Virus record (IMG/VR): IMGVR_UViG_2718218305_000006
Source: a virus
Lineage: Duplodnaviria; Heunggongvirae; Uroviricota; Caudoviricetes
DNA: 64,000 nucleotides
Strand: one strand, 5' to 3'
How positions within the stretch are numbered: position 1 is the stretch's first letter; every line of letters starts with the position of its first letter. This document shows, piece after piece, positions 38,904 through 61,503 of this stretch. A model generated the notes under the pieces. It was given only the letters and a program-made list of their open reading frames with translations, searched no databases and was not told where the DNA came from. Both the position numbers and the translations under genes were made by a program.

Positions 38904-39461
38904 ATGAACCATGAAGAAATGAATCAGCGCTTCAGTCGTCTGGAAAATGAAATTGCTGAACTGAATAAAAAACTGTCGACGCTGATGCCTTCTGAAGATG
39001 AAAAAAAACGCCGCGATGAGCAGTTTGCTGCGTTTGACGATTATTGTCGGAAAGTGATGAGCAGAAATCTCTCAGAGTGTTTCAGTATTCATAATGATAA
39101 TTTCAGTGAGCTGGAATGGGAGTGTAACCGGCCATCCTTTGTTGTATCCGGTGATGCTGGGAAAATAACCATCTCAGAAAATGGAAAAGTAACACCGCCA
39201 TCGCACCAGCATAGTGAGGAGCTCATTGAATTTGCCATTGATTACCTGAAGAACAATAAAAAACAGGGGCTGATGAAGTGCATTGGTCGTTGCATGGGAT
39301 ATCTGCAGATAGCTGCTGAGATTGAAGCGCTGGCCAGTGGTGCGGACAAGGATGCAGTTGTGCGGGAGGCTCTTCTTCGTGAGTTTGACAACCCGCCCTT
39401 TAAAAAAGTGCCGGCTTACTGGTTTCATCCAGGACTGACTTATCTTAAAGGACGTATATAA
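38904..39461 (+). CDS. Hypothetical protein inserted between holin and endolysin
   Basis: 186-aa ORF starting right at the holin stop; N-terminal coiled coil, Cys-containing C-terminal half; no recognised domain. Confidence 0.55.
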   Translation: MNHEEMNQRFSRLENEIAELNKKLSTLMPSEDEKKRRDEQFAAFDDYCRKVMSRNLSECFSIHNDNFSELEWECNRPSFVVSGDAGKITISENGKVTPPSHQHSEELIEFAIDYLKNNKKQGLMKCIGRCMGYLQIAAEIEALASGADKDAVVREALLREFDNPPFKKVPAYWFHPGLTYLKGRI

Positions 39462-39503
39462 GCTGGCTCGTTATCTGTTGCCGATAAATCCTGATAAATA
39501 TCC

Positions 39504-40037
39504 ATGAACACCAAAATCAAATACGGCCTGTCGGCTGCCGTTCTGGCGCTGATTGCCGCTGGTGCGCCTGCGCCTGACATTCTCGACCAGTTTCTGGATG
39601 AAAAGGAAGGTAACCACACCACGGCATACCGTGATGGTGCGGGTATCTGGACCATCTGCCGAGGTGCCATCATGGTGGATGGTAAGCCTGTGATTCCTGG
39701 CATGAAGCTGTCGAAGGAAAAATGCGACCGGGTTAACGCCATTGAGCGTGATAAGGCGCTGGCATGGGTGGAGAAAAACATCAAAGTGCCACTGACCGAA
39801 CCCCAGAAAGCGGGTATTGCGTCATTCTGTCCTTACAACATTGGCCCAGGTAAGTGTTTCCCGTCGACGTTTTATAAACGAATTAATGCAGGTGATCGCA
39901 GGGGAGCGTGTGAGGCGATTCGCTGGTGGATTAAGGACGGTGGGCGTGATTGCCGCACACGTTCAAATAACTGCTACGGACAGGTTATTCGTCGTGACCA
40001 GGAAAGCGCATTAGCTTGTTGGGGGATAGATCAGTGA
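39504..40037 (+). CDS. SAR endolysin (T4-lysozyme-like muramidase with N-terminal signal-anchor-release segment)
   Basis: N-terminal hydrophobic [16 protein letters not shown], then lysozyme-like domain; position between holin and Rz. Confidence 0.8.
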
Positions 40038-40501
40038 GAAGAGTAACCGCGATTATTTACGCTCTGGTTATCTGCATCATCGTCTGTCTGTTATGGGCTG
40101 TTAATCATTACCGCGATAACGCCATCACCTACAAAGCGCAGCGCGATAAAAAAGCCAGAGAGCTGGAACAGGCGAATGCCACCATTACTGACATGCAGGT
40201 GCGCCAGCGTGATGTTGCTGCGCTCGATGCAAAATACTCGAAGGAATTAGCCGATGCGAGAGCTGAAAATGAAACTCTGCGTGCTGATGTTGCCGCTGGT
40301 CGTAAGCGCCTGCGGATCAACGCCACCTGCCACGGTACCGTGCGTGAAGCCACCGGCACCTCCGGCGTGGATAATGCAACCGGCCCCCGACTGGCAGACA
40401 CCGCTGAACGGGATTATTTCATCCTCAGAGAACGGTTGATGATGATGCAGAAGCAGCTGGAAGGGGCGCAGGAATATATCCGCACTCAGTGTATTAACTA
40501 G
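40034..40501 (+). CDS. Rz-like i-spanin
   Basis: GTG start overlapping the endolysin stop; N-terminal TM, coiled-coil periplasmic domain; resembles lambda Rz. Confidence 0.75.
40254..40439 (+). CDS. Rz1-like o-spanin lipoprotein, embedded in +1 frame within Rz
   Basis: [20 protein letters not shown] lipobox followed by a proline-rich segment (…[26 protein letters not shown]…). Confidence 0.8.
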
Positions 40502-55742: not shown

Positions 55743-55982
55743 AAATAAAAAAATCCCGCAGAGTTAGCGGAGCTGCGGGAGAGAACGATGAAGATTAACG
55801 TTATGGAGTTATTTTTCAGGCATCAAAAAAGTAACGCAGCGTCATTATTGCGGCTACAGGCAATTGCCGGAAATGTGAAGAGTTTCAGAAATTTTATTCC
55901 GTCATGACACAGGCACCCTCCGGGGTGCCTGTTGTTTTCTGGCATAAACAGATTCAGACATCAGACAGGAGAGGGGGACAGA

Positions 55983-58900
55983 GTGGGTAAAGGGGGCGGC
56001 AAGGGGCACACGCCGGTAGAGGCAAAGGACAATCTTAAGTCCACGCAGATGATGAGCGTGATTGACGCCATTGGTGAAGGGCCGATTGAAGGTCCGGTGA
56101 AGGGGCTGCAGAGTATCCTGGTGAACAAAACCCCGCTGACGGACACGGACGGTAATCCCGTGATACACGGTGTGACCGCGGTCTGGCGTGCCGGGGAGCA
56201 GGAGCAGACACCGCCGGAAGGTTTTGAGTCCTCCGGAGCTGAAACCGCACTGGGCGTGGAAGTGACGAAGGCAAAGCCGGTGACGCGCACCATTACGTCC
56301 GCGAACATTGACCGCCTGCGGGTCACCTTCGGGGTGCAGTCACTGGTGCAGACCACGTCAAAGGGTGACCGAAACCCGACATCCGTCCGCCTGCTGATTC
56401 AGTTACAGCGTAACGGTAACTGGGTGACGGAAAAGGATGTCACCATTAACGGCAAGACAACCTCGCAGTTTCTGGCGTCGGTGATTCTGGATAATCTGCC
56501 TCCCCGTCCTTTTAACATCCGGATGGTCAGGGAGACGGCGGACAGCACCACGGACCAGCTGCAGAATAAGACGCTGTGGTCGTCATACACCGAAATCATC
56601 GATGTGAAACAGTGCTACCCGAACACGGCTATTGTGGGGCTGCAGGTGGATGCGGAGCAGTTCGGCGGCCAGCAGATGACGGTGAACTACCATATCCGCG
56701 GTCGCATCATCCAGGTGCCGTCAAACTATGACCCGGAAAAACGCACGTACAGTGGTATCTGGGACGGTAGCCTGAAACCGGCATACAGCAATAACCCGGC
56801 CTGGTGCCTGTGGGACATGCTGACCCACCCGCGCTACGGAATGGGAAAACGCCTGGGGGCGGCGGATGTGGACAAGTGGGCGCTGTATGCCATTGCGCAG
56901 TACTGCGACCAGATGGTCCCTGATGGTTTCGGGGGCACAGAGCCGCGGATGACCTTTAATGCGTACCTGTCACAACAGCGTAAGGCGTGGGATGTGCTCA
57001 GTGATTTCTGCTCGGCGATGCGCTGTATGCCGGTATGGAACGGCCAGACGCTGACGTTCGTTCAGGACCGCCCGTCGGATGTGGTGTGGCCGTACACCAA
57101 CAGCGATGTGGTGGTGGATGATAACGGCGTGGGGTTTCGCTACAGCTTCAGCGCCCTGAAGGACCGCCACACGGCGGTGGAGGTGAATTACACCGACCCG
57201 CAGAACGGCTGGCAGACCTCCACGGAACTGGTGGAAGACCCGGAAGCCATACTGCGCTACGGGCGCAACCTGCTGAAGATGGATGCGTTCGGCTGCACCA
57301 GTCGCGGTCAGGCCCACCGTGCCGGGCTGTGGGTGATAAAGACCGGACTGCTGGAAACGCAGACGGTGGATTTCACGCTCGGGTCACAGGGGCTGCGTCA
57401 CACACCCGGTGACATTATTGAAATCTGTGATAACGACTATGCCGGGACCATGACCGGCGGACGTATCCTGTCCATCGATGCCGCCAGCCGCACCCTGACG
57501 CTGGACCGTGAGGTGACCCTGCCGGAGACCGGTGCCGCCACGGTGAACCTGATTAACGGCAGCGGTAAGCCGGTGAGTGTGGACATCACCGCACACCCCG
57601 CGCCGGACCGGATACAGGTCAGCACCCTGCCGGATGGCGTGGAGACATACGGTGTGTGGGGGCTCTCCCTGCCGTCACTGCGTCGTCGCCTGTTCCGCTG
57701 TGTCTCCATACGGGAAAACACGGACGGCACCTTTGCCATCACGGCGGTGCAGCACGTACCGGAAAAAGAAGCCATCGTGGATAACGGGGCCAGCTTTGAG
57801 CCGCAGTCAGGCACCCTGAACAGCGTTATTCCACCGGCAGTGCAGCACCTGACGGTGGAGGTGAGCGCGGCTGACGGTCAGTATCTGGCACAGGCGAAAT
57901 GGGACACGCCGCGGGTGGTGAAGGGTGTGCGCTTCAGTCTGCGCCTGACCAGCGGAAGCGGAGAAGACAGCCGTCTGGTGACCACCGCCATCACTGCGGA
58001 TACAGAGCATCGTTTCAGTGGTCTGCCGCCCGGGGAATACACCCTGACAGTCAGGGCAATTAACAGTTATGGCCAGCAGGGCGAACCGGCCACCACCACG
58101 TTCAGGATTAATGCACCTGCGGTACCCGCCACGATTGAGCTGACACCGGGCTATTTTCAGATAACAGCGGTCCCGCGTCTTGCGGTGTATGACCCGACGG
58201 TACAGTTTGAGTTCTGGTTTTCGGAGACAAAAATCGCAGACACATCTCAGGTGGAAACCTCTGCCCGTTATCTGGGGACCGGCAGTCAGTGGAGTGTATC
58301 CGGCCCGCACATTAAGCCCGGGAAGGATTTCTGGTTTTACGTGCGCAGCGTCAACCTGGTGGGGAAATCTGCTTTTGTGGAAGCCAGTGGCCGGGCCAGC
58401 AATGATGCAGAAGGGTATCTGGGGCTGTTTCGGGAAAAAATAGGAAAACTGCATCTGGCTCAGGGGCTGTGGGAGCTGATAGACAACAGCCAGCTTGCGG
58501 ATGAGATGGCGGAGATGAAGACCACCATCACCGAAACCCGCAATGAAATCACACAGACGGTCAGTAAAACGCTGGAAGACCAGAGCGCCACCATACAGCA
58601 GATACAGCGCGTGCAGAAGGACACAAATGATGACCTGGCTGCGCTGTACATGCTGAAGGTTCAAAAAACGAAAGACGGCATTCCCTATGTGGCCGGGATT
58701 GGTGCAGGGATTGAGGATACTGATGGCCAGCCACTGAGCAACATACTGCTGCTGGCTGACCGTATCGCGATGATAAATCCGGAGAGCGGCAACAGCACGC
58801 CGTTATTTGTGGCGCAGGGGAATCAGCTGTTCATGAACGACGTGTTCCTGAAACGACTGTTTGCGGTGAGCATCACGTCATCCGGCAATCCTCCGGCATT

Positions 58901-59459
58901 TTCCCTGACGCCGGACGGGCGACTGACGGCGAAAAATGCGGATATCAGTGGCAGTGTGAATGCGAACTCAGGGACGCTCAACAACGTCACGATTAATGAG
59001 AACTGTCAGATTAAGGGGAAACTGTCAGCCAACCAGATTGAAGGTGATATTGTCAAAACGGTCAGCAAGTCTTTCCCCCGCACGAGCACTTATGCCAGTG
59101 GCACCATCACGGTAAGAATCAGTGATGATCAGAAGTTTGACCGGCAGGTCATGATACCGCCAGTGTTATTCCGCGGTGGTAAGCATGAGAATTTCAACAG
59201 TAATAACCAACAGTCATATTGGTATTCAACCTGCCGGTTAAGAGTGACCCGCAATGGTCAGGAGATTTTTAATCAGTCCACGACGGATGCTCAGGGCGTA
59301 TTTTCCTCAGTTATAGATATGCCTGCCGGACAGGGGACGCTGACACTGACATTCACCGTATCTTCATCAGGAGCGAATAACTGGACACCAACAACCAGTA
59401 TCAGCGATCTGCTGGTTGTGGTGATGAAAAAATCCACAGCAGGTATCAGTATCAGCTGA
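55983..59459 (+). CDS. J: Tail tip/central fibre protein J (intact)
   Basis: GTG start with RBS ggagaggggga; N-terminus [39 protein letters not shown]… and C-terminus …[20 protein letters not shown] parallel lambda gpJ. Confidence 0.9.
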
Positions 59460-59477
59460 ATTTTATAACCCATAACG

Positions 59478-59501
59478 GGCGTCAGAAATGACGCCTTTTT
59501 T
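59478..59501 (+). terminator. Intrinsic terminator after J
   Basis: gggcgtc-agaaat-gacgcc hairpin followed by T-run. Confidence 0.5.
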
Positions 59502-59525
59502 ATTGCAGAAAAGCGAGAGGTAATT

Positions 59526-60125
59526 ATGCGTAAACTTTATGCCGCCATTTTGTCCGCAGCCATCTGTCTGGCCGTATCCGGTGCGCCTGCATGGGCGTCT
59601 GAACATCAGTCCACGCTGAGCGCGGGCTATCTTCATGCCTCGACGAACGTTTCCGGCAGCGATGATCTGAACGGGATTAACGTGAAATACCGTTATGAGT
59701 TTACGGACACTCTGGGAATGGTGACGTCATTCAGCTATGCAGGAGACAGGAATCGCCAGCTTACCCGTTACAGCGATACCCGCTGGCATGAAGATTCCGT
59801 TCGTAACCGCTGGTTCAGCGTAATGGCGGGGCCGTCTGTGCGCGTGAATGAATGGTTCAGCGCGTATGCGATGGCGGGTGTGGCTTACAGCCGTGTGTCG
59901 ACTTTCTCCGGGGATTATCTCCGCGTAACTGACAACAAGGGGAAAACGCACGACGTGCTGACCGGAAGTGATGACGGTCGCCACAGCAACACGTCTCTGG
60001 CGTGGGGGGCTGGCGTGCAGTTTAACCCGACCGAATCCGTGGCCATTGATATTGCTTATGAAGGCTCCGGCAGTGGCGACTGGCGCACTGACGGTTTCAT
60101 CGTGGGTGTCGGTTATAAGTTCTGA
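59526..60125 (+). CDS. lom: Lom-like outer membrane protein
   Basis: Near-identical paralogue of 9719-10318. Confidence 0.85.
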
Positions 60126-60151
60126 TTAGCCAGGTAACACAGTGTTATGAC

Positions 60152-60179
60152 AGCCCGCCGGTTCAGGCGGGCTTTTTTG
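60152..60179 (+). terminator. Intrinsic terminator after lom
   Basis: agcccgcc-ggttcag-gcgggct hairpin followed by TTTTTT. Confidence 0.6.
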
Positions 60180-60189
60180 TGGGGTGAAT

Positions 60190-61503
60190 ATGGCAGTAAA
60201 GATTTCAGGTGTACTGAAAGACGGCACAGGAAAACCGGTAGAGAACTGCACCATTCAACTGAAAGCCAGACGGACCAGCAGCACGGTGGTGGTGAACACG
60301 GTGGCCTCTGAAAATCCGGATGAAGCCGGTCGTTACAGCATGGACGTTGAGTACGGTCAGTACAGCGTCATTCTGTTGGTGGAGGGCTTCCCGCCGTCAC
60401 ATGCCGGGACCATCACCGTGTATGAAGATTCTCAACCCGGTACGCTGAATGATTTTCTCGGTGCCATGTCGGAGGATGACGTCCGGCCGGAGGCACTGCG
60501 CCGTTTTGAACTGATGGTGGAAGAGGTGGCGCGTCACGCTGAGGAGGCGAAGAAGAATGCCGGAGAGGCGGAGACGTCAGCGAGGAATGCCGGCATATCA
60601 GCCAGTCAGGCAGAAGAGAGCGCTGCAAATGCTGACACTTCAGCAGGGGATGCATCGGAGTCAGCCCGGCAGGCGGCAGAAAGTGCAGCCGCTGCAAAGC
60701 AGTCAGAGGAGGCGTCCTCGTCCTCGGCCTCTGCGGCCGCTCAAAAAGCCAGTGAGTCATCACAAAGTGCAGCAGAAGCTGAATTGTCAAGAAAGACGGC
60801 AGAAAGTGCAGCCGGTAATGCAGCCAGGGATGCAACGACCGCAGCAGAAAAAGCCCGGGAGTCAGCAGAAAGCGCACAGTCAGCGGAACAAAGCAGGATA
60901 GCGGCGGAAGAGGCCGTAAACCGAATCCCCACCGTGGTGGGGCCTCCCGGGCCAAAGGGGGAACAGGGTCCCGCGGGTCCTCAGGGGCCGAAGGGAGATA
61001 AAGGAGAGCGTGGCGACACCGGCCCGGCAGGGGCAACCGGTGAACGGGGGCCGGCAGGTGATGCTGGTCCGGCAGGCCCGCCGGGGCCGAAAGGTGACAG
61101 GGGAGAGCGGGGAGAGACCGGTCTGACGGGAAATGCAGGTCCACAGGGTCCAAAGGGAGATACCGGTGCGGCAGGCCCGGCAGGCCCACAGGGACCGAAA
61201 GGAGAAACAGGTGCGGCTGGCCCGGTGGGGGCGACCGGACCTCAGGGACCGAAGGGCGACCCGGGGGAGACGCAAATACGGTTCCGTCTGGGGCCGGGAA
61301 ACATTATTGAGACAAACAGCCATGGCTGGTTCCCGGATACAGATGGCGCACTCATCACCGGACTGACCTTTCTTGACCCCAAAGATGCCACACGGGTTCA
61401 GGGTTTTTTTCAGCATTTGCAGGTCAGGTTTGGTGACGGGCCGTGGCAGGATGTTAAGGGGCTGGATGAAGTGGGCAGTGATACAGGCAGAACAGGAGAA
61501 TGA
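60190..61503 (+). CDS. Tail fibre protein with collagen-like Gly-X-Y repeats
   Basis: Near-identical to 10383-11696 with scattered substitutions. Confidence 0.8.

What the first reader, a model, noticed from the sequence alone, without database searches (positions are those of the whole stretch)
38904..39461. Unknown 186-aa gene inserted between the pinholin and the SAR endolysin
Lysis cassettes normally place holin and endolysin genes next to each other. Here an ORF begins at the holin stop codon and ends 42 bp before the endolysin start, so it would be expressed with the late lysis genes. It has an N-terminal coiled coil and no recognisable enzymatic motif. It could be a lysis regulator or a late-expressed moron.
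Basis: partly seen in the sequence, partly recalled or inferred. Interest (0 to 1): 0.55.

Follow-up and report, generated by a model that had tools for sequence, protein, structure and literature searches.

The report
Headless YdfR-family gene in lysis cassette
The ORF between the holin and the endolysin is a real, selected gene, but it is an ordinary one: a variant, missing its usual first domain, of a common and still uncharacterised prophage protein family that fills this slot in many E. coli prophages.

Summary
A 185-codon ORF (ATG 38904, stop 39459-39461; 186 aa only if GTG 38901 is used) starts 3 nt after the P21-type holin stop and ends 42 bp before the SAR-type endolysin.

It is not an unusual insertion. 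In S21-holin cassettes of E. coli prophages the S-R slot usually holds a modular YdfR/DUF1327-family gene. The window's gene is the "headless" form: a heptad-repeat helical hairpin, a linker and an orphan ~107-aa C-terminal domain, without DUF1327.

- The exact protein is on 944 public contigs, named only "hypothetical" or "phage protein", including a Stx2a prophage of O157 strain 493/89.
- The C-domain occurs in 776 of 5,426 complete E. coli genomes, mostly fused to DUF1327.
- Distant homologues in Salmonella sit at the head of lysis cassettes with other holin types.
- pN/pS is about 0.2-0.4, and GC is 44% against about 53% for its neighbours.
- Function is unknown. 933W/Sakai-type phages have S abutting R, so the gene is dispensable for lysis.

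My inference is a cytoplasmic late accessory protein acting in the YdfR pathway; K-12 YdfR binds RNase E. A lysis-timing role is the main rival.

The parts
36033..37979 (+). nanS-p-like sialate O-acetylesterase gene. An upstream late-region cargo gene that gives the context of the Stx-phage-type late region.
   Evidence: Pfam DUF1737 + SASA + DUF6645. The same gene is annotated yjhS/SASA esterase in relatives.
38116..38295 (+). DUF1378 small gene
   Evidence: PF07125, E=1.3e-38
38336..38608 (+). DUF826 small gene
   Evidence: PF05696, E=1.8e-28
38685..38900 (+). P21-type class II holin S (pinholin type), 71 aa, with a dual-start motif M1-Y-Q-M4
   Evidence: PF04971, E=8.5e-33; phrog_20/9876 holin
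38890..38895 (+). Shine-Dalgarno-like GGGGAG inside the holin 3' end, 8 nt upstream of the target ATG. Translational coupling to S is inferred.
   Evidence: Sequence. The same 3-nt gap between S stop and start codon is present in four other loci.
38904..39461 (+). Target gene: 185 aa, about 21.3 kDa, pI 5.8, soluble. A headless (DUF1327-less) member of the YdfR-related family phrog_1085. An alternative GTG start lies at 38901.
38910..39080 (+). Residues 3-59: heptad-repeat helical hairpin (helices 3-27 and 31-59). Presumed oligomerisation or partner-binding module.
   Evidence: AlphaFold2 model me9c3d5299eba, block pLDDT 66-91. The a/d pattern F10-L13-I17-L20-L24-L27 is visible in the sequence. 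The segment is shared with PhiR12-type 169-aa YdfR proteins.
39081..39137 (+). Residues 60-78: acidic low-confidence linker. This is the site of segment insertions in the 208-222-aa relatives.
   Evidence: pLDDT <50 for residues 54-72; alignments; pI 4.4
39138..39458 (+). Residues 79-185: orphan alpha/beta C-terminal domain (3-stranded sheet 80-97; helices 101-117, 123-144, 151-161, 178-184). Conserved motifs: H-x-H (101-103), GRCMGYLQ-AAEIE (128-141), DNPPFK (162-167), W-PG-YLK-R (173-184).
   Evidence: Block pLDDT 82-95 over residues 81-185 and 73 for residues 71-80. Conserved columns. Homologues in Salmonella and uncultured samples.
39462..39503 (+). 42-bp spacer before the endolysin. It is conserved with the R-upstream sequence of related phages. 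It contains no convergent partner gene, unlike several relatives.
   Evidence: Query positions 882-960 match R-upstream regions. tblastn found no partner gene in the window.
39504..40037 (+). R21-like SAR-type endolysin (lysozyme), 177 aa
   Evidence: PF00959, E=1e-23; phrog_7 endolysin. The Gly/Ala-rich N-terminal segment is visible in the sequence.
40034..40501 (+). Rz i-spanin. The GTG start overlaps the R stop.
   Evidence: PF03245, E=1.4e-50. PGAP coordinates were transferred from locus L009.
40254..40439 (+). Rz1 o-spanin embedded in Rz (+1 frame), with lipobox LVVSAC
   Evidence: ORF and translation. The arrangement matches rz/rz1 in phage 86.

Best explanation
**What it is (shown).** This is a genuine, non-essential accessory gene of the late operon. 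It is the domain-loss ('headless') form of the modular YdfR-family proteins, which commonly occupy the slot between the P21-type holin and the SAR-type endolysin in E. coli lambdoid prophages.

The full-length relatives (259-329 aa) have this architecture: DUF1327 domain, linker, heptad-repeat helices, variable linker, orphan C-domain. The window's gene keeps only the helices, the linker and the C-domain.

It is soluble and cytoplasmic, with no transmembrane segment and no signal peptide. It lies within the late transcription unit, between S and R. Its start codon is 3 nt after the S stop, with the Shine-Dalgarno sequence inside S.

**How it works (inferred, not shown).** The protein acts late in the lytic cycle in the cytoplasm, through protein-protein contacts and not through catalysis. 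The helical hairpin would oligomerise or dock. The conserved C-domain would bind a host or phage partner.

The C-domain is fused to a DUF1327-type domain in most E. coli relatives. The Salmonella relatives carry an N-terminal region that looks DUF1327-like by eye but has no Pfam match. The only experimental datum for DUF1327 is that K-12 YdfR residues 1-72 bind the catalytic half of RNase E, and YdfR co-purifies RNA. I therefore place the C-domain in the same pathway: modulation of host RNA-decay machinery or of late or lysis transcript fate. The headless form would work alone, or in trans with DUF1327-bearing paralogues from co-resident prophages.

It is not a core lysis effector.
For: **Family and architecture.**
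- phrog_1085 match, E=7e-112, to profile positions 117-296 only.
- 86% identity over the shared part to the Stx2_95 329-aa protein, which carries PF07041 at residues 1-112.
- Fused forms of 259, 268, 287 and 296 aa and standalone forms of 185-222 aa are both listed.
- The standalone forms range from 97% down to 47% identity. The ones I retrieved start with MN/MK/MH followed by an EE/EK heptad helix (sequences). The headless architecture is therefore old and maintained, not a fresh deletion.
- The junction DNA differs from the fused form.

**Selection.** pN/pS is 0.19-0.33 in 8 of the 10 pairs of 185-aa alleles (0 in one pair, 0.71 in another on very few changes) and 0.12-0.44 for the C-domain against more distant forms.

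**Abundance.**
- The exact protein is on 944 contigs.
- The C-domain is in 776 of 5,426 complete E. coli genomes.
- The same 185-aa gene sits in the same slot in a Stx2a prophage of strain 493/89.

**Late-operon position is conserved across diverged relatives.**
- Salmonella homologues lie just upstream of a PF04971 holin.
- S. diarizonae and uncultured homologues lie upstream of PF16080-type holins.
- One uncultured homologue lies about 0.9 kb upstream of a GH108 endolysin on a short contig where no holin was called.

**Dispensable for lysis.** 933W/Sakai-type phages have S abutting R.

**Protein properties.** Soluble: maximum Kyte-Doolittle 19-residue window 0.95, pI 5.8. The AlphaFold2 model has mean pLDDT 79.8.

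**RNase E link.** PMC13232886 reports that YdfR residues 1-72 bind Rne 1-597, by bacterial two-hybrid assay and pull-down, and that RNA co-purifies.
Against: - The mechanistic half is inference by domain fusion only. The window's protein lacks the very domain (DUF1327) that was shown to bind RNase E.
- In the same paper, overproduction of YdfR changed the transcriptome very little.
- No sequence or fold relative with known function exists for the C-domain. No step of the proposed action is supported directly.
- The position next to lysis genes would equally fit a lysis-timing role.
- Linkage to the cassette may simply reflect that the Q-to-lysis region is a cargo hot spot. Stx, ArtAB-like toxin genes, HicAB and ParE are seen there.
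Confidence: 0.4

Rival explanations
1. Cytoplasmic lysis-timing regulator. The protein binds a cytoplasmic part of the lysis machinery, for example the basic C-terminal tail of the pinholin/antiholin. It would delay or sharpen hole formation, analogous in logic to T4 RIII acting on holin T from the cytoplasm.
For: - The gene sits inside the lysis cassette with a start codon coupled to S.
- The family is always found in or at the head of lysis cassettes, even in diverged relatives.
- The protein is acidic overall (pI 5.8; N-terminal part 5.35). The holin tail is basic ([13 protein letters not shown]).
- Expression depends on the late operon, because no promoter of its own was found.
Against: - Homologues accompany different holin families (PF04971 and PF16080), and one lies near a GH108 endolysin. 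A specific holin contact is therefore less likely.
- In Salmonella the gene lies upstream of S, separated from it by a convergent gene.
- The slot is empty in many fully lytic Stx2a phages.
- There is no similarity to any known antiholin or holin regulator.
- Fusion to an RNase E-binding domain is not what one expects of a holin partner.
Confidence: 0.22
2. Acquired cargo serving phage-phage or phage-host conflict. Candidates are superinfection exclusion, anti-defence or defence, expressed late, with no role in lysis or RNA metabolism.
For: - The gene is a compositional island: GC 44.3% and GC3 43%, against 53% and 55-67% for S and R.
- Modules are shuffled extensively and the linker is variable.
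- Presence is patchy among close phages.
- Neighbouring cargo in relatives includes toxins and toxin-antitoxin genes.
- A conserved convergent small partner gene occurs in several relatives. This could indicate a two-gene conflict module.
Against: - No PADLOC match.
- No promoter or terminator of its own, so it would not be expressed from the repressed prophage as classical morons and exclusion genes are.
- The window's copy lacks the partner gene.
Confidence: 0.18
3. Functionless remnant. The ORF is a deletion derivative of a full-length YdfR-family gene that lost its N-terminal domain and is drifting toward loss.
For: - It lacks the family's defining domain.
- Many truncated fragments of the family are present in databases.
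- The slot can be empty.
Against: - pN/pS is well below 1 in nearly all comparisons.
- The ORF is intact in 248 complete genomes and the exact protein is on 944 contigs.
- Several diverged standalone lineages (47-97% identity) keep the same start context (sequences).
- The Shine-Dalgarno sequence is well placed.
- Most 'fragments' in the databases are flagged partial, on short contigs.
Confidence: 0.1

Closest known systems
Long YdfR-family proteins of Stx and lambdoid phages, e.g. Stx2a phage Stx2_95 BCI50300.1 (329 aa), phage 86 gp05 YP_794052.1 (268 aa), and the 296-aa form common in E. coli (P0035/P0039)
   Same: They occupy the same S-R slot. They share the heptad helices and C-domain: 86% identity to Stx2_95 and 72% to phage 86 over the aligned part, and 84% to the phage 86 C-domain by tblastn. 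They belong to the same PHROG family (phrog_1085).
   Different: They carry an N-terminal DUF1327 (PF07041) domain of about 112 aa that the window's protein lacks. The window's N-terminal 15 codons also differ at the DNA level from the fused forms.
Short YdfR (E. coli K-12 Qin YdfR, P76160, 103 aa; BP-4795 ORF47, 114 aa)
   Same: Same genomic slot between the S21-type holin and the lysozyme (K-12 gene order from my own knowledge). Same family in the sense of shared modular relatives.
   Different: There is no sequence overlap at all. Short YdfR is the DUF1327 domain only, and the target is everything except DUF1327. The RNase E binding shown for YdfR residues 1-72 (PMC13232886) therefore cannot be transferred directly.
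Standalone 213-aa form in Stx2a phage Stx2_12E129 (BCI98956.1)
   Same: Headless architecture, the same start 3 nt after the S stop, and 68% identity over the full length.
   Different: It has an extra ~28-aa segment in the linker. It is followed by a convergent 104-aa gene (phrog_1853) before R, which the window lacks.
Salmonella enterica homologues (e.g. P0125, 192 aa; P0161, 189 aa)
   Same: Conserved C-domain with the GR-MG-LQ-AAEIE, DNPPFK and W-PG-YLK motifs, at 36-42% identity. They lie in the late region next to a P21-type holin.
   Different: Their N-terminal region looks DUF1327-like by eye (my reading; Pfam found no match), and they lack the long heptad hairpin. They lie upstream of the holin, and holin and lysozyme overlap directly.
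T4 RIII (cytoplasmic antiholin cofactor); analogy only, from my own knowledge
   Same: A small soluble helical cytoplasmic protein linked with lysis control. This is the only known precedent for a cytoplasmic, non-membrane lysis regulator.
   Different: There is no sequence or fold similarity. RIII belongs to a different phage type and is not encoded inside a holin-endolysin cassette. No interaction data exist here.

Membership tests
YdfR family / DUF1327 (PF07041) | Presence of the DUF1327 domain (about 93-112 aa, N-terminal) | tested here: not met
   Pfam scan of the target found no PF07041 hit even at E<=1. The same scan gave E=2e-34 to 4e-46 for four slot-mates in related phages. The alignment shows the target starts after the domain.
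YdfR family / DUF1327 (PF07041) | Location between the S21-type holin and the lysozyme in lambdoid prophages | tested here: met
   for the window. The same slot is occupied in BP-4795, PhiR12_1, phage 86, Stx2_95 and L014/L015.
PHROG phrog_1085 (unknown function; long YdfR-type proteins) | Significant match to the family HMM | tested here: met
   E=7.2e-112, 374.6 bits. Target residues 1-185 align to profile positions 117-296 of 296, so only the C-terminal 60% of the profile is covered.
Holin / antiholin | One or more transmembrane domains | tested here: not met
   The maximum Kyte-Doolittle 19-residue window is 0.95, which is far below transmembrane values. No holin Pfam or PHROG hit.
Endolysin / spanin | Muralytic domain, or a spanin transmembrane segment or lipobox | tested here: not met
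   No Pfam, NCBIfam or PHROG lysis-category hit. No lipobox or signal sequence is visible in the translation.
Classical moron (Juhala/Hendrix sense) | Base composition deviating from its neighbours | tested here: met
   GC 44.3% and GC3 43.0%, against S 53.2%/66.7% and R 52.8%/54.5%.
Classical moron (Juhala/Hendrix sense) | Own promoter and terminator allowing expression from the repressed prophage | tested here: not met
   The consensus scan found no + strand promoter-like or terminator-like site between 38600 and 39520. The scan is crude, so weak promoters are not excluded.
Known anti-phage defence systems (PADLOC-DB v2) | Match to any defence-protein HMM | tested here: not met
   0 families at E<=1 for the target and for the 329-aa relative.
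RNase E-binding YdfR function (PMC13232886) | Physical interaction with the RNase E N-terminal half | not testable with these tools
   This needs a two-hybrid or pull-down experiment. The interaction surface was mapped to YdfR residues 1-72, a region absent from the target.

The most novel reading that the evidence does not exclude
The orphan C-domain could be the effector end of an undescribed phage late function. That function would couple the host RNA-decay machinery (RNase E, reached through DUF1327 in cis or in trans) to the timing or yield of lysis-cassette expression. The conserved convergent 104-aa gene (phrog_1853) would act as its regulator or antagonist. Under this reading the headless copy in the window would be a deregulated or trans-acting version of a two- or three-part module that sits at the head of pinholin/SAR-endolysin cassettes across Escherichia and Salmonella.
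Probability: 0.1. Interest if true: 0.7.

Novelty: new member of a known kind. Interest (0 to 1): 0.3.

Why it matters
By itself the gene matters little. It is a widespread 'hypothetical protein' that lysis does not need.

- **Corrected assumption.** In P21-type cassettes of E. coli prophages a gene between the holin and the endolysin is the rule, not the exception. The slot-filling family is modular.
- **An unstudied domain.** The family's orphan C-domain is present in about 14% of complete E. coli genomes, including Stx2a prophages. It has never been studied.
- **A possible biological link.** One family domain has recently been tied to RNase E, and Shiga toxin release depends on this same late operon. 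A role in late-transcript fate or lysis timing would affect toxin release kinetics.
- **An annotation fix.** Intact 296-aa genes are being called truncated pseudogenes in RefSeq.

Tried and rejected
1. **Family searches on the target.** Pfam, NCBIfam and PADLOC gave only sub-threshold noise such as DegQ, Relaxase_C and HLH. A member-by-member Pfam scan of the C-domain alignment at E<=5 found nothing consistent.

2. **PDB sequence-profile search with the C-domain alignment.** The best E-value was 0.094 (a PhoU homologue), which I rejected.

3. **First AlphaFold2 run.** With 16 E. coli sequences the mean pLDDT was 49.5 and the model was unusable. A 39-sequence alignment that included Salmonella and uncultured homologues gave pLDDT 79.8.

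4. **Fold searches on that model.**
   - Foldseek against BFVD viral structures: no hit at E<=0.001.
   - Foldseek against PDB: no hit at E<=0.001.
   - afdb50 was not available.
   - The long N-terminal helices may dominate these searches.

5. **Exhaustive HMM search of 1.8 billion representatives.** It gave only 42 hits. The three large proteins (P0143, P0145, P0156) are repeat proteins matched spuriously and were rejected after I read them.

6. **Literature.**
   - A full-text search for 'ydfR' or 'DUF1327' returned 45 papers. All 25 listed matched on 'ydfR' only, and most of those are melanoma cell-line names.
   - The only relevant paper found is the RNase E interactor study.
   - Two Stx-phage comparative papers do not discuss the S-R slot in the passages retrieved.
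   - A search for 'between S and R' returned nothing, and a search combining essQ, rrrQ and ydfR returned nothing relevant.

7. **'Simple recent deletion of DUF1327'.** Rejected. The first ~15 codons differ at the DNA level from the fused forms, and diverged standalone lineages exist.

8. **Other copies in the window.** I looked for a DUF1327 copy or the convergent partner gene elsewhere in the window. There is none.
Full report
**1. The observation**

The + strand carries an ORF at 38901..39461. From the GTG at 38901 it encodes 186 aa. From the ATG at 38904 it encodes 185 aa, and this is the start PGAP uses in identical loci.

- The preceding gene (38685..38900) is a P21-type class II holin (PF04971, E=8.5e-33). 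Its TAG stop is at 38898-38900.
- A GGGGAG Shine-Dalgarno sequence at 38890-38895 lies 8 nt before the ATG. The start is placed for translational coupling to S.
- The ORF stops at 39459-39461, exactly 42 bp before the ATG (39504) of a PF00959 lysozyme. That lysozyme has a Gly/Ala-rich, SAR-type N-terminus.
- Rz (40034..40501, PF03245, E=1.4e-50) with its embedded Rz1 (40254..40439, lipobox) follows.
- A consensus scan finds no promoter-like or terminator-like site on the + strand between S and R.

The one slip is the length: 185 aa from the stated start.

**2. It is a real gene**

- Five 185-aa alleles from the window and four E. coli genomes give pN/pS of 0.19-0.33 in 8 of their 10 pairs. One pair has no nonsynonymous change, and the pair L011/L012 gives 0.71 on only 3 synonymous against 8 nonsynonymous differences.
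- The C-terminal 114 codons, compared with more distant forms (Stx2_12E129, phage 86, Stx2_95), give 0.12-0.44 at pS up to 0.33.
- The exact protein occurs on 944 public contigs, named only 'hypothetical protein' or 'phage protein'.
- Megablast finds some part of the gene in 810 of 5,426 complete E. coli genomes, and at least 80% of it in 248.
- One of these copies is the Stx2a prophage of O157 strain 493/89. There the gene (WP_001015164.1, identical protein, three synonymous differences) sits in the same slot, downstream of stx2a, nanS-p, DUF1378, DUF826 and S.

**3. What it is**

The target has no significant Pfam, NCBIfam or PADLOC match. It does match PHROG phrog_1085 (unknown function) at E=7e-112, but only over profile positions 117-296 of 296. 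The annotated relatives explain this partial match. In S21-holin cassettes the S-R slot is typically filled by a YdfR/DUF1327-family gene of variable length:

| Phage | Length | Architecture |
|---|---|---|
| BP-4795 ORF47 | 114 aa | DUF1327 only |
| PhiR12_1 | 169 aa | DUF1327 + heptad helices |
| Phage 86 gp05 | 268 aa | DUF1327 + C-domain |
| Stx2_95 | 329 aa | DUF1327 + helices + C-domain |
| Stx2_12E129 | 213 aa | helices + C-domain, no DUF1327 |

The window's protein is 86% identical to the Stx2_95 protein over the shared part and lacks the DUF1327 domain. It is a 'headless' family member.

This is not a fresh deletion.
- The first ~15 codons differ at the DNA level from the fused forms.
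- Standalone forms of 185, 208-209, 213, 216-217 and 221-222 aa range from 97% down to 47% identity.
- The ones I retrieved begin with the same type of MN/MK/MH-EE/EK heptad helix.

**4. How common the slot-filling is**

| Element | Places | Complete E. coli genomes (of 5,426) |
|---|---|---|
| S21-type holin | 8,764 | 2,403 |
| DUF1327 N-domain | 6,157 | 2,922 |
| C-domain | 951 | 776 |

- Most C-domain copies (about 93% identity) belong to an intact 296-aa fused ORF. PGAP annotates this ORF as a truncated YdfR pseudogene and leaves the C-domain unannotated.
- In the phage collection, an evenly spaced sample of the 362 records that share this holin region shows two groups. 933W/Sakai-type Stx2a phages have S abutting R. 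Long-tailed Stx1a, Stx2c and BP-4795-type phages carry ydfR.
- Only 20 phage records have any tblastn match to the target, and only 5 records (3 phages) have the C-domain.

An occupied slot is therefore normal for this cassette type. The gene is dispensable for lysis, and its presence is patchy.

**5. Wider family and context**

An exhaustive profile search of 1.8 billion representative proteins found only 42 hits. After removing three spurious repeat proteins, these are enterobacterial. A profile search with names shows E. coli, Shigella and Salmonella enterica, plus unnamed samples.

The conserved core is the C-domain, with these motifs:
- H-x-H
- GR(C)MG-LQ-AAEIE
- DNPPFK
- W-PG-YLK-R

Genomic contexts of the relatives:
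- Salmonella homologues carry an N-terminal region that looks DUF1327-like by eye, although Pfam finds no match, plus the C-domain. They lie just upstream of a P21-type holin that overlaps its lysozyme. They sit downstream of Q and of cargo such as ArtAB-like toxin genes or HicAB.
- S. diarizonae and uncultured homologues lie upstream of PF16080-type holins. One uncultured homologue lies about 0.9 kb upstream of a GH108 endolysin, on a short contig where no holin was called.

Association with the head of the lysis cassette is thus conserved. The exact S-R position and the holin type are not.

Several relatives are followed by a convergent small gene, and the window has no such partner.
- In four diverged loci this is a 104-105-aa protein (phrog_1853, 40-77% identity).
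- In two other loci it is a 96-aa DUF1883 protein.

**6. The protein**

- It is about 21.3 kDa, with pI 5.8 and no hydrophobic segment (maximum Kyte-Doolittle 19-residue window 0.95).
- Its GC content is 44.3% (GC3 43%) against about 53% for S, R and Rz. It is a compositional island.
- With a 39-sequence alignment, AlphaFold2 gives mean pLDDT 79.8.

| Residues | Predicted structure |
|---|---|
| 3-27 and 31-59 | helices; a/d heptad F10-L13-I17-L20-L24-L27 |
| 54-72 | low confidence |
| 80-97 | three-stranded sheet |
| 101-117, 123-144, 151-161, 178-184 | helices |

Block pLDDT is 82-95 over residues 81-185.

**7. Mechanism**

What is shown:
- The gene lies within the late transcription unit, between S and R.
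- The protein is soluble and cytoplasmic.
- It is modular.
- It is under purifying selection.
- It is not needed for lysis in related phages.

What is inferred: the C-domain is fused to a DUF1327-type domain in most E. coli relatives, and the Salmonella relatives carry an N-terminal region that looks DUF1327-like by eye. It therefore probably works in the same process as DUF1327.

The only experimental datum on DUF1327 comes from PMC13232886. K-12 YdfR residues 1-72 bind the N-terminal catalytic half of RNase E, shown by two-hybrid assay and pull-down, and YdfR preparations carry RNA. Overproduction changed the transcriptome little.

My best reading (confidence 0.4 for identity and mechanism together) is a cytoplasmic late accessory protein. 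It would act by protein-protein contacts in a YdfR/RNase E-linked pathway. The helical hairpin would allow oligomerisation, possibly with DUF1327-bearing paralogues from co-resident prophages.

Rivals:
- **A cytoplasmic lysis-timing regulator (0.22).** It fits the position and the coupling to S. It is weakened by association with different holin families and by the empty slot in lytic relatives.
- **Conflict cargo (0.18).** It fits the low GC, the patchiness and the neighbouring cargo. It is weakened by the absence of its own promoter and of any PADLOC match.
- **A functionless remnant (0.10).** It is contradicted by the selection signal and by the diversity of intact standalone lineages.

**8. 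Comparison with what is known, and verdict**

The gene fails the defining test of the YdfR family, because it has no DUF1327 domain. It passes the test for phrog_1085 and shares the slot and two modules with long YdfR-family proteins. It is not a holin, antiholin, endolysin or spanin. It meets the compositional criterion for a classical moron but not the promoter/terminator criterion.

The two Stx-phage comparative papers that treat this region do not discuss the S-R slot in the passages I retrieved. I found no functional study of the C-domain.

The finding is correct as an observation but ordinary. It is a new (headless) member of a catalogued, uncharacterised family. Interest is low to moderate (0.3). 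It rests on the unexplored function of a domain present in about 14% of complete E. coli genomes, inside the operon that controls Shiga toxin release.

Noticed in passing
L013:2154-2468 (-), L002:3607-3921 (-), L005:4599-4916 (-), L018:495-812 (-); absent from window 39462-39503: A conserved 104-105-aa gene (phrog_1853, no Pfam, 40-77% identity) lies immediately 3' of the C-domain gene and convergent with it. It is present in E. coli phages, Salmonella and an uncultured contig. In L016 and L020 a 96-aa DUF1883 gene holds the same position. This may be a functional partner. The window's copy lacks it.
   Followed up: partly
L014:1959-2849 and L015:1959-2846 (E. coli NR329 and strain 131): PGAP annotates only the first 336 nt of this YdfR + C-domain gene (1959-2294), as 'YdfR family protein, incomplete, missing C-terminus', and leaves the C-domain unannotated. 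An intact 296-aa ORF was confirmed in L014; L015 carries the same annotation pattern, but its ORF was not translated. About 540 complete genomes carry C-domain copies at 90-95% identity, and many sampled rows show no annotated feature. This looks like a systematic annotation artefact.
   Followed up: partly
window 38904-39461: The gene is a compositional island: GC 44.3% and GC3 43.0%. For comparison, S is 53.2%/66.7%, R is 52.8%/54.5%, Rz is 52.9%/57.4%, and the whole window is 52.3% GC.
   Followed up: yes
window 38685-38696: The holin dual-start motif reads M-Y-Q-M, with no basic residue between the two Met codons. Phage 21 S has M-K-S-M, and the Lys is what makes the longer product an antiholin (from my own knowledge). 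The longer product here may not act as an antiholin, which would leave lysis timing to other factors.
   Followed up: no
window 33922-36033: This prophage has the late-region layout of Stx phages: a Q-like DUF1133 gene, then nanS-p, DUF1378, DUF826 and S. It has no stx genes and no tRNA genes. Instead there is an ORF6N-domain gene (34744-35319) and three terminator-like hairpins at 35568, 35791 and 35910.
   Followed up: partly
window 6131-11696 and 55932-61503: Two tail-fibre-like regions show the same pattern of ORF sizes: 1100 or 1175 aa, then 199 aa, then 439 aa. This suggests two lambdoid prophages, or prophage ends, in tandem within the window. An integrase gene at 18301-19575 (-) lies between them.
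   Followed up: no
L005:2157-3469, L007:2339-2992, L016:2025-2725: In Salmonella relatives, the stretch between Q and the C-domain gene carries other cargo: an ArtAB/pertussis-like toxin gene (faint Pfam hits), HicAB, or ParE plus an HTH gene. The Q-to-lysis interval is a cargo hot spot there too.
   Followed up: no
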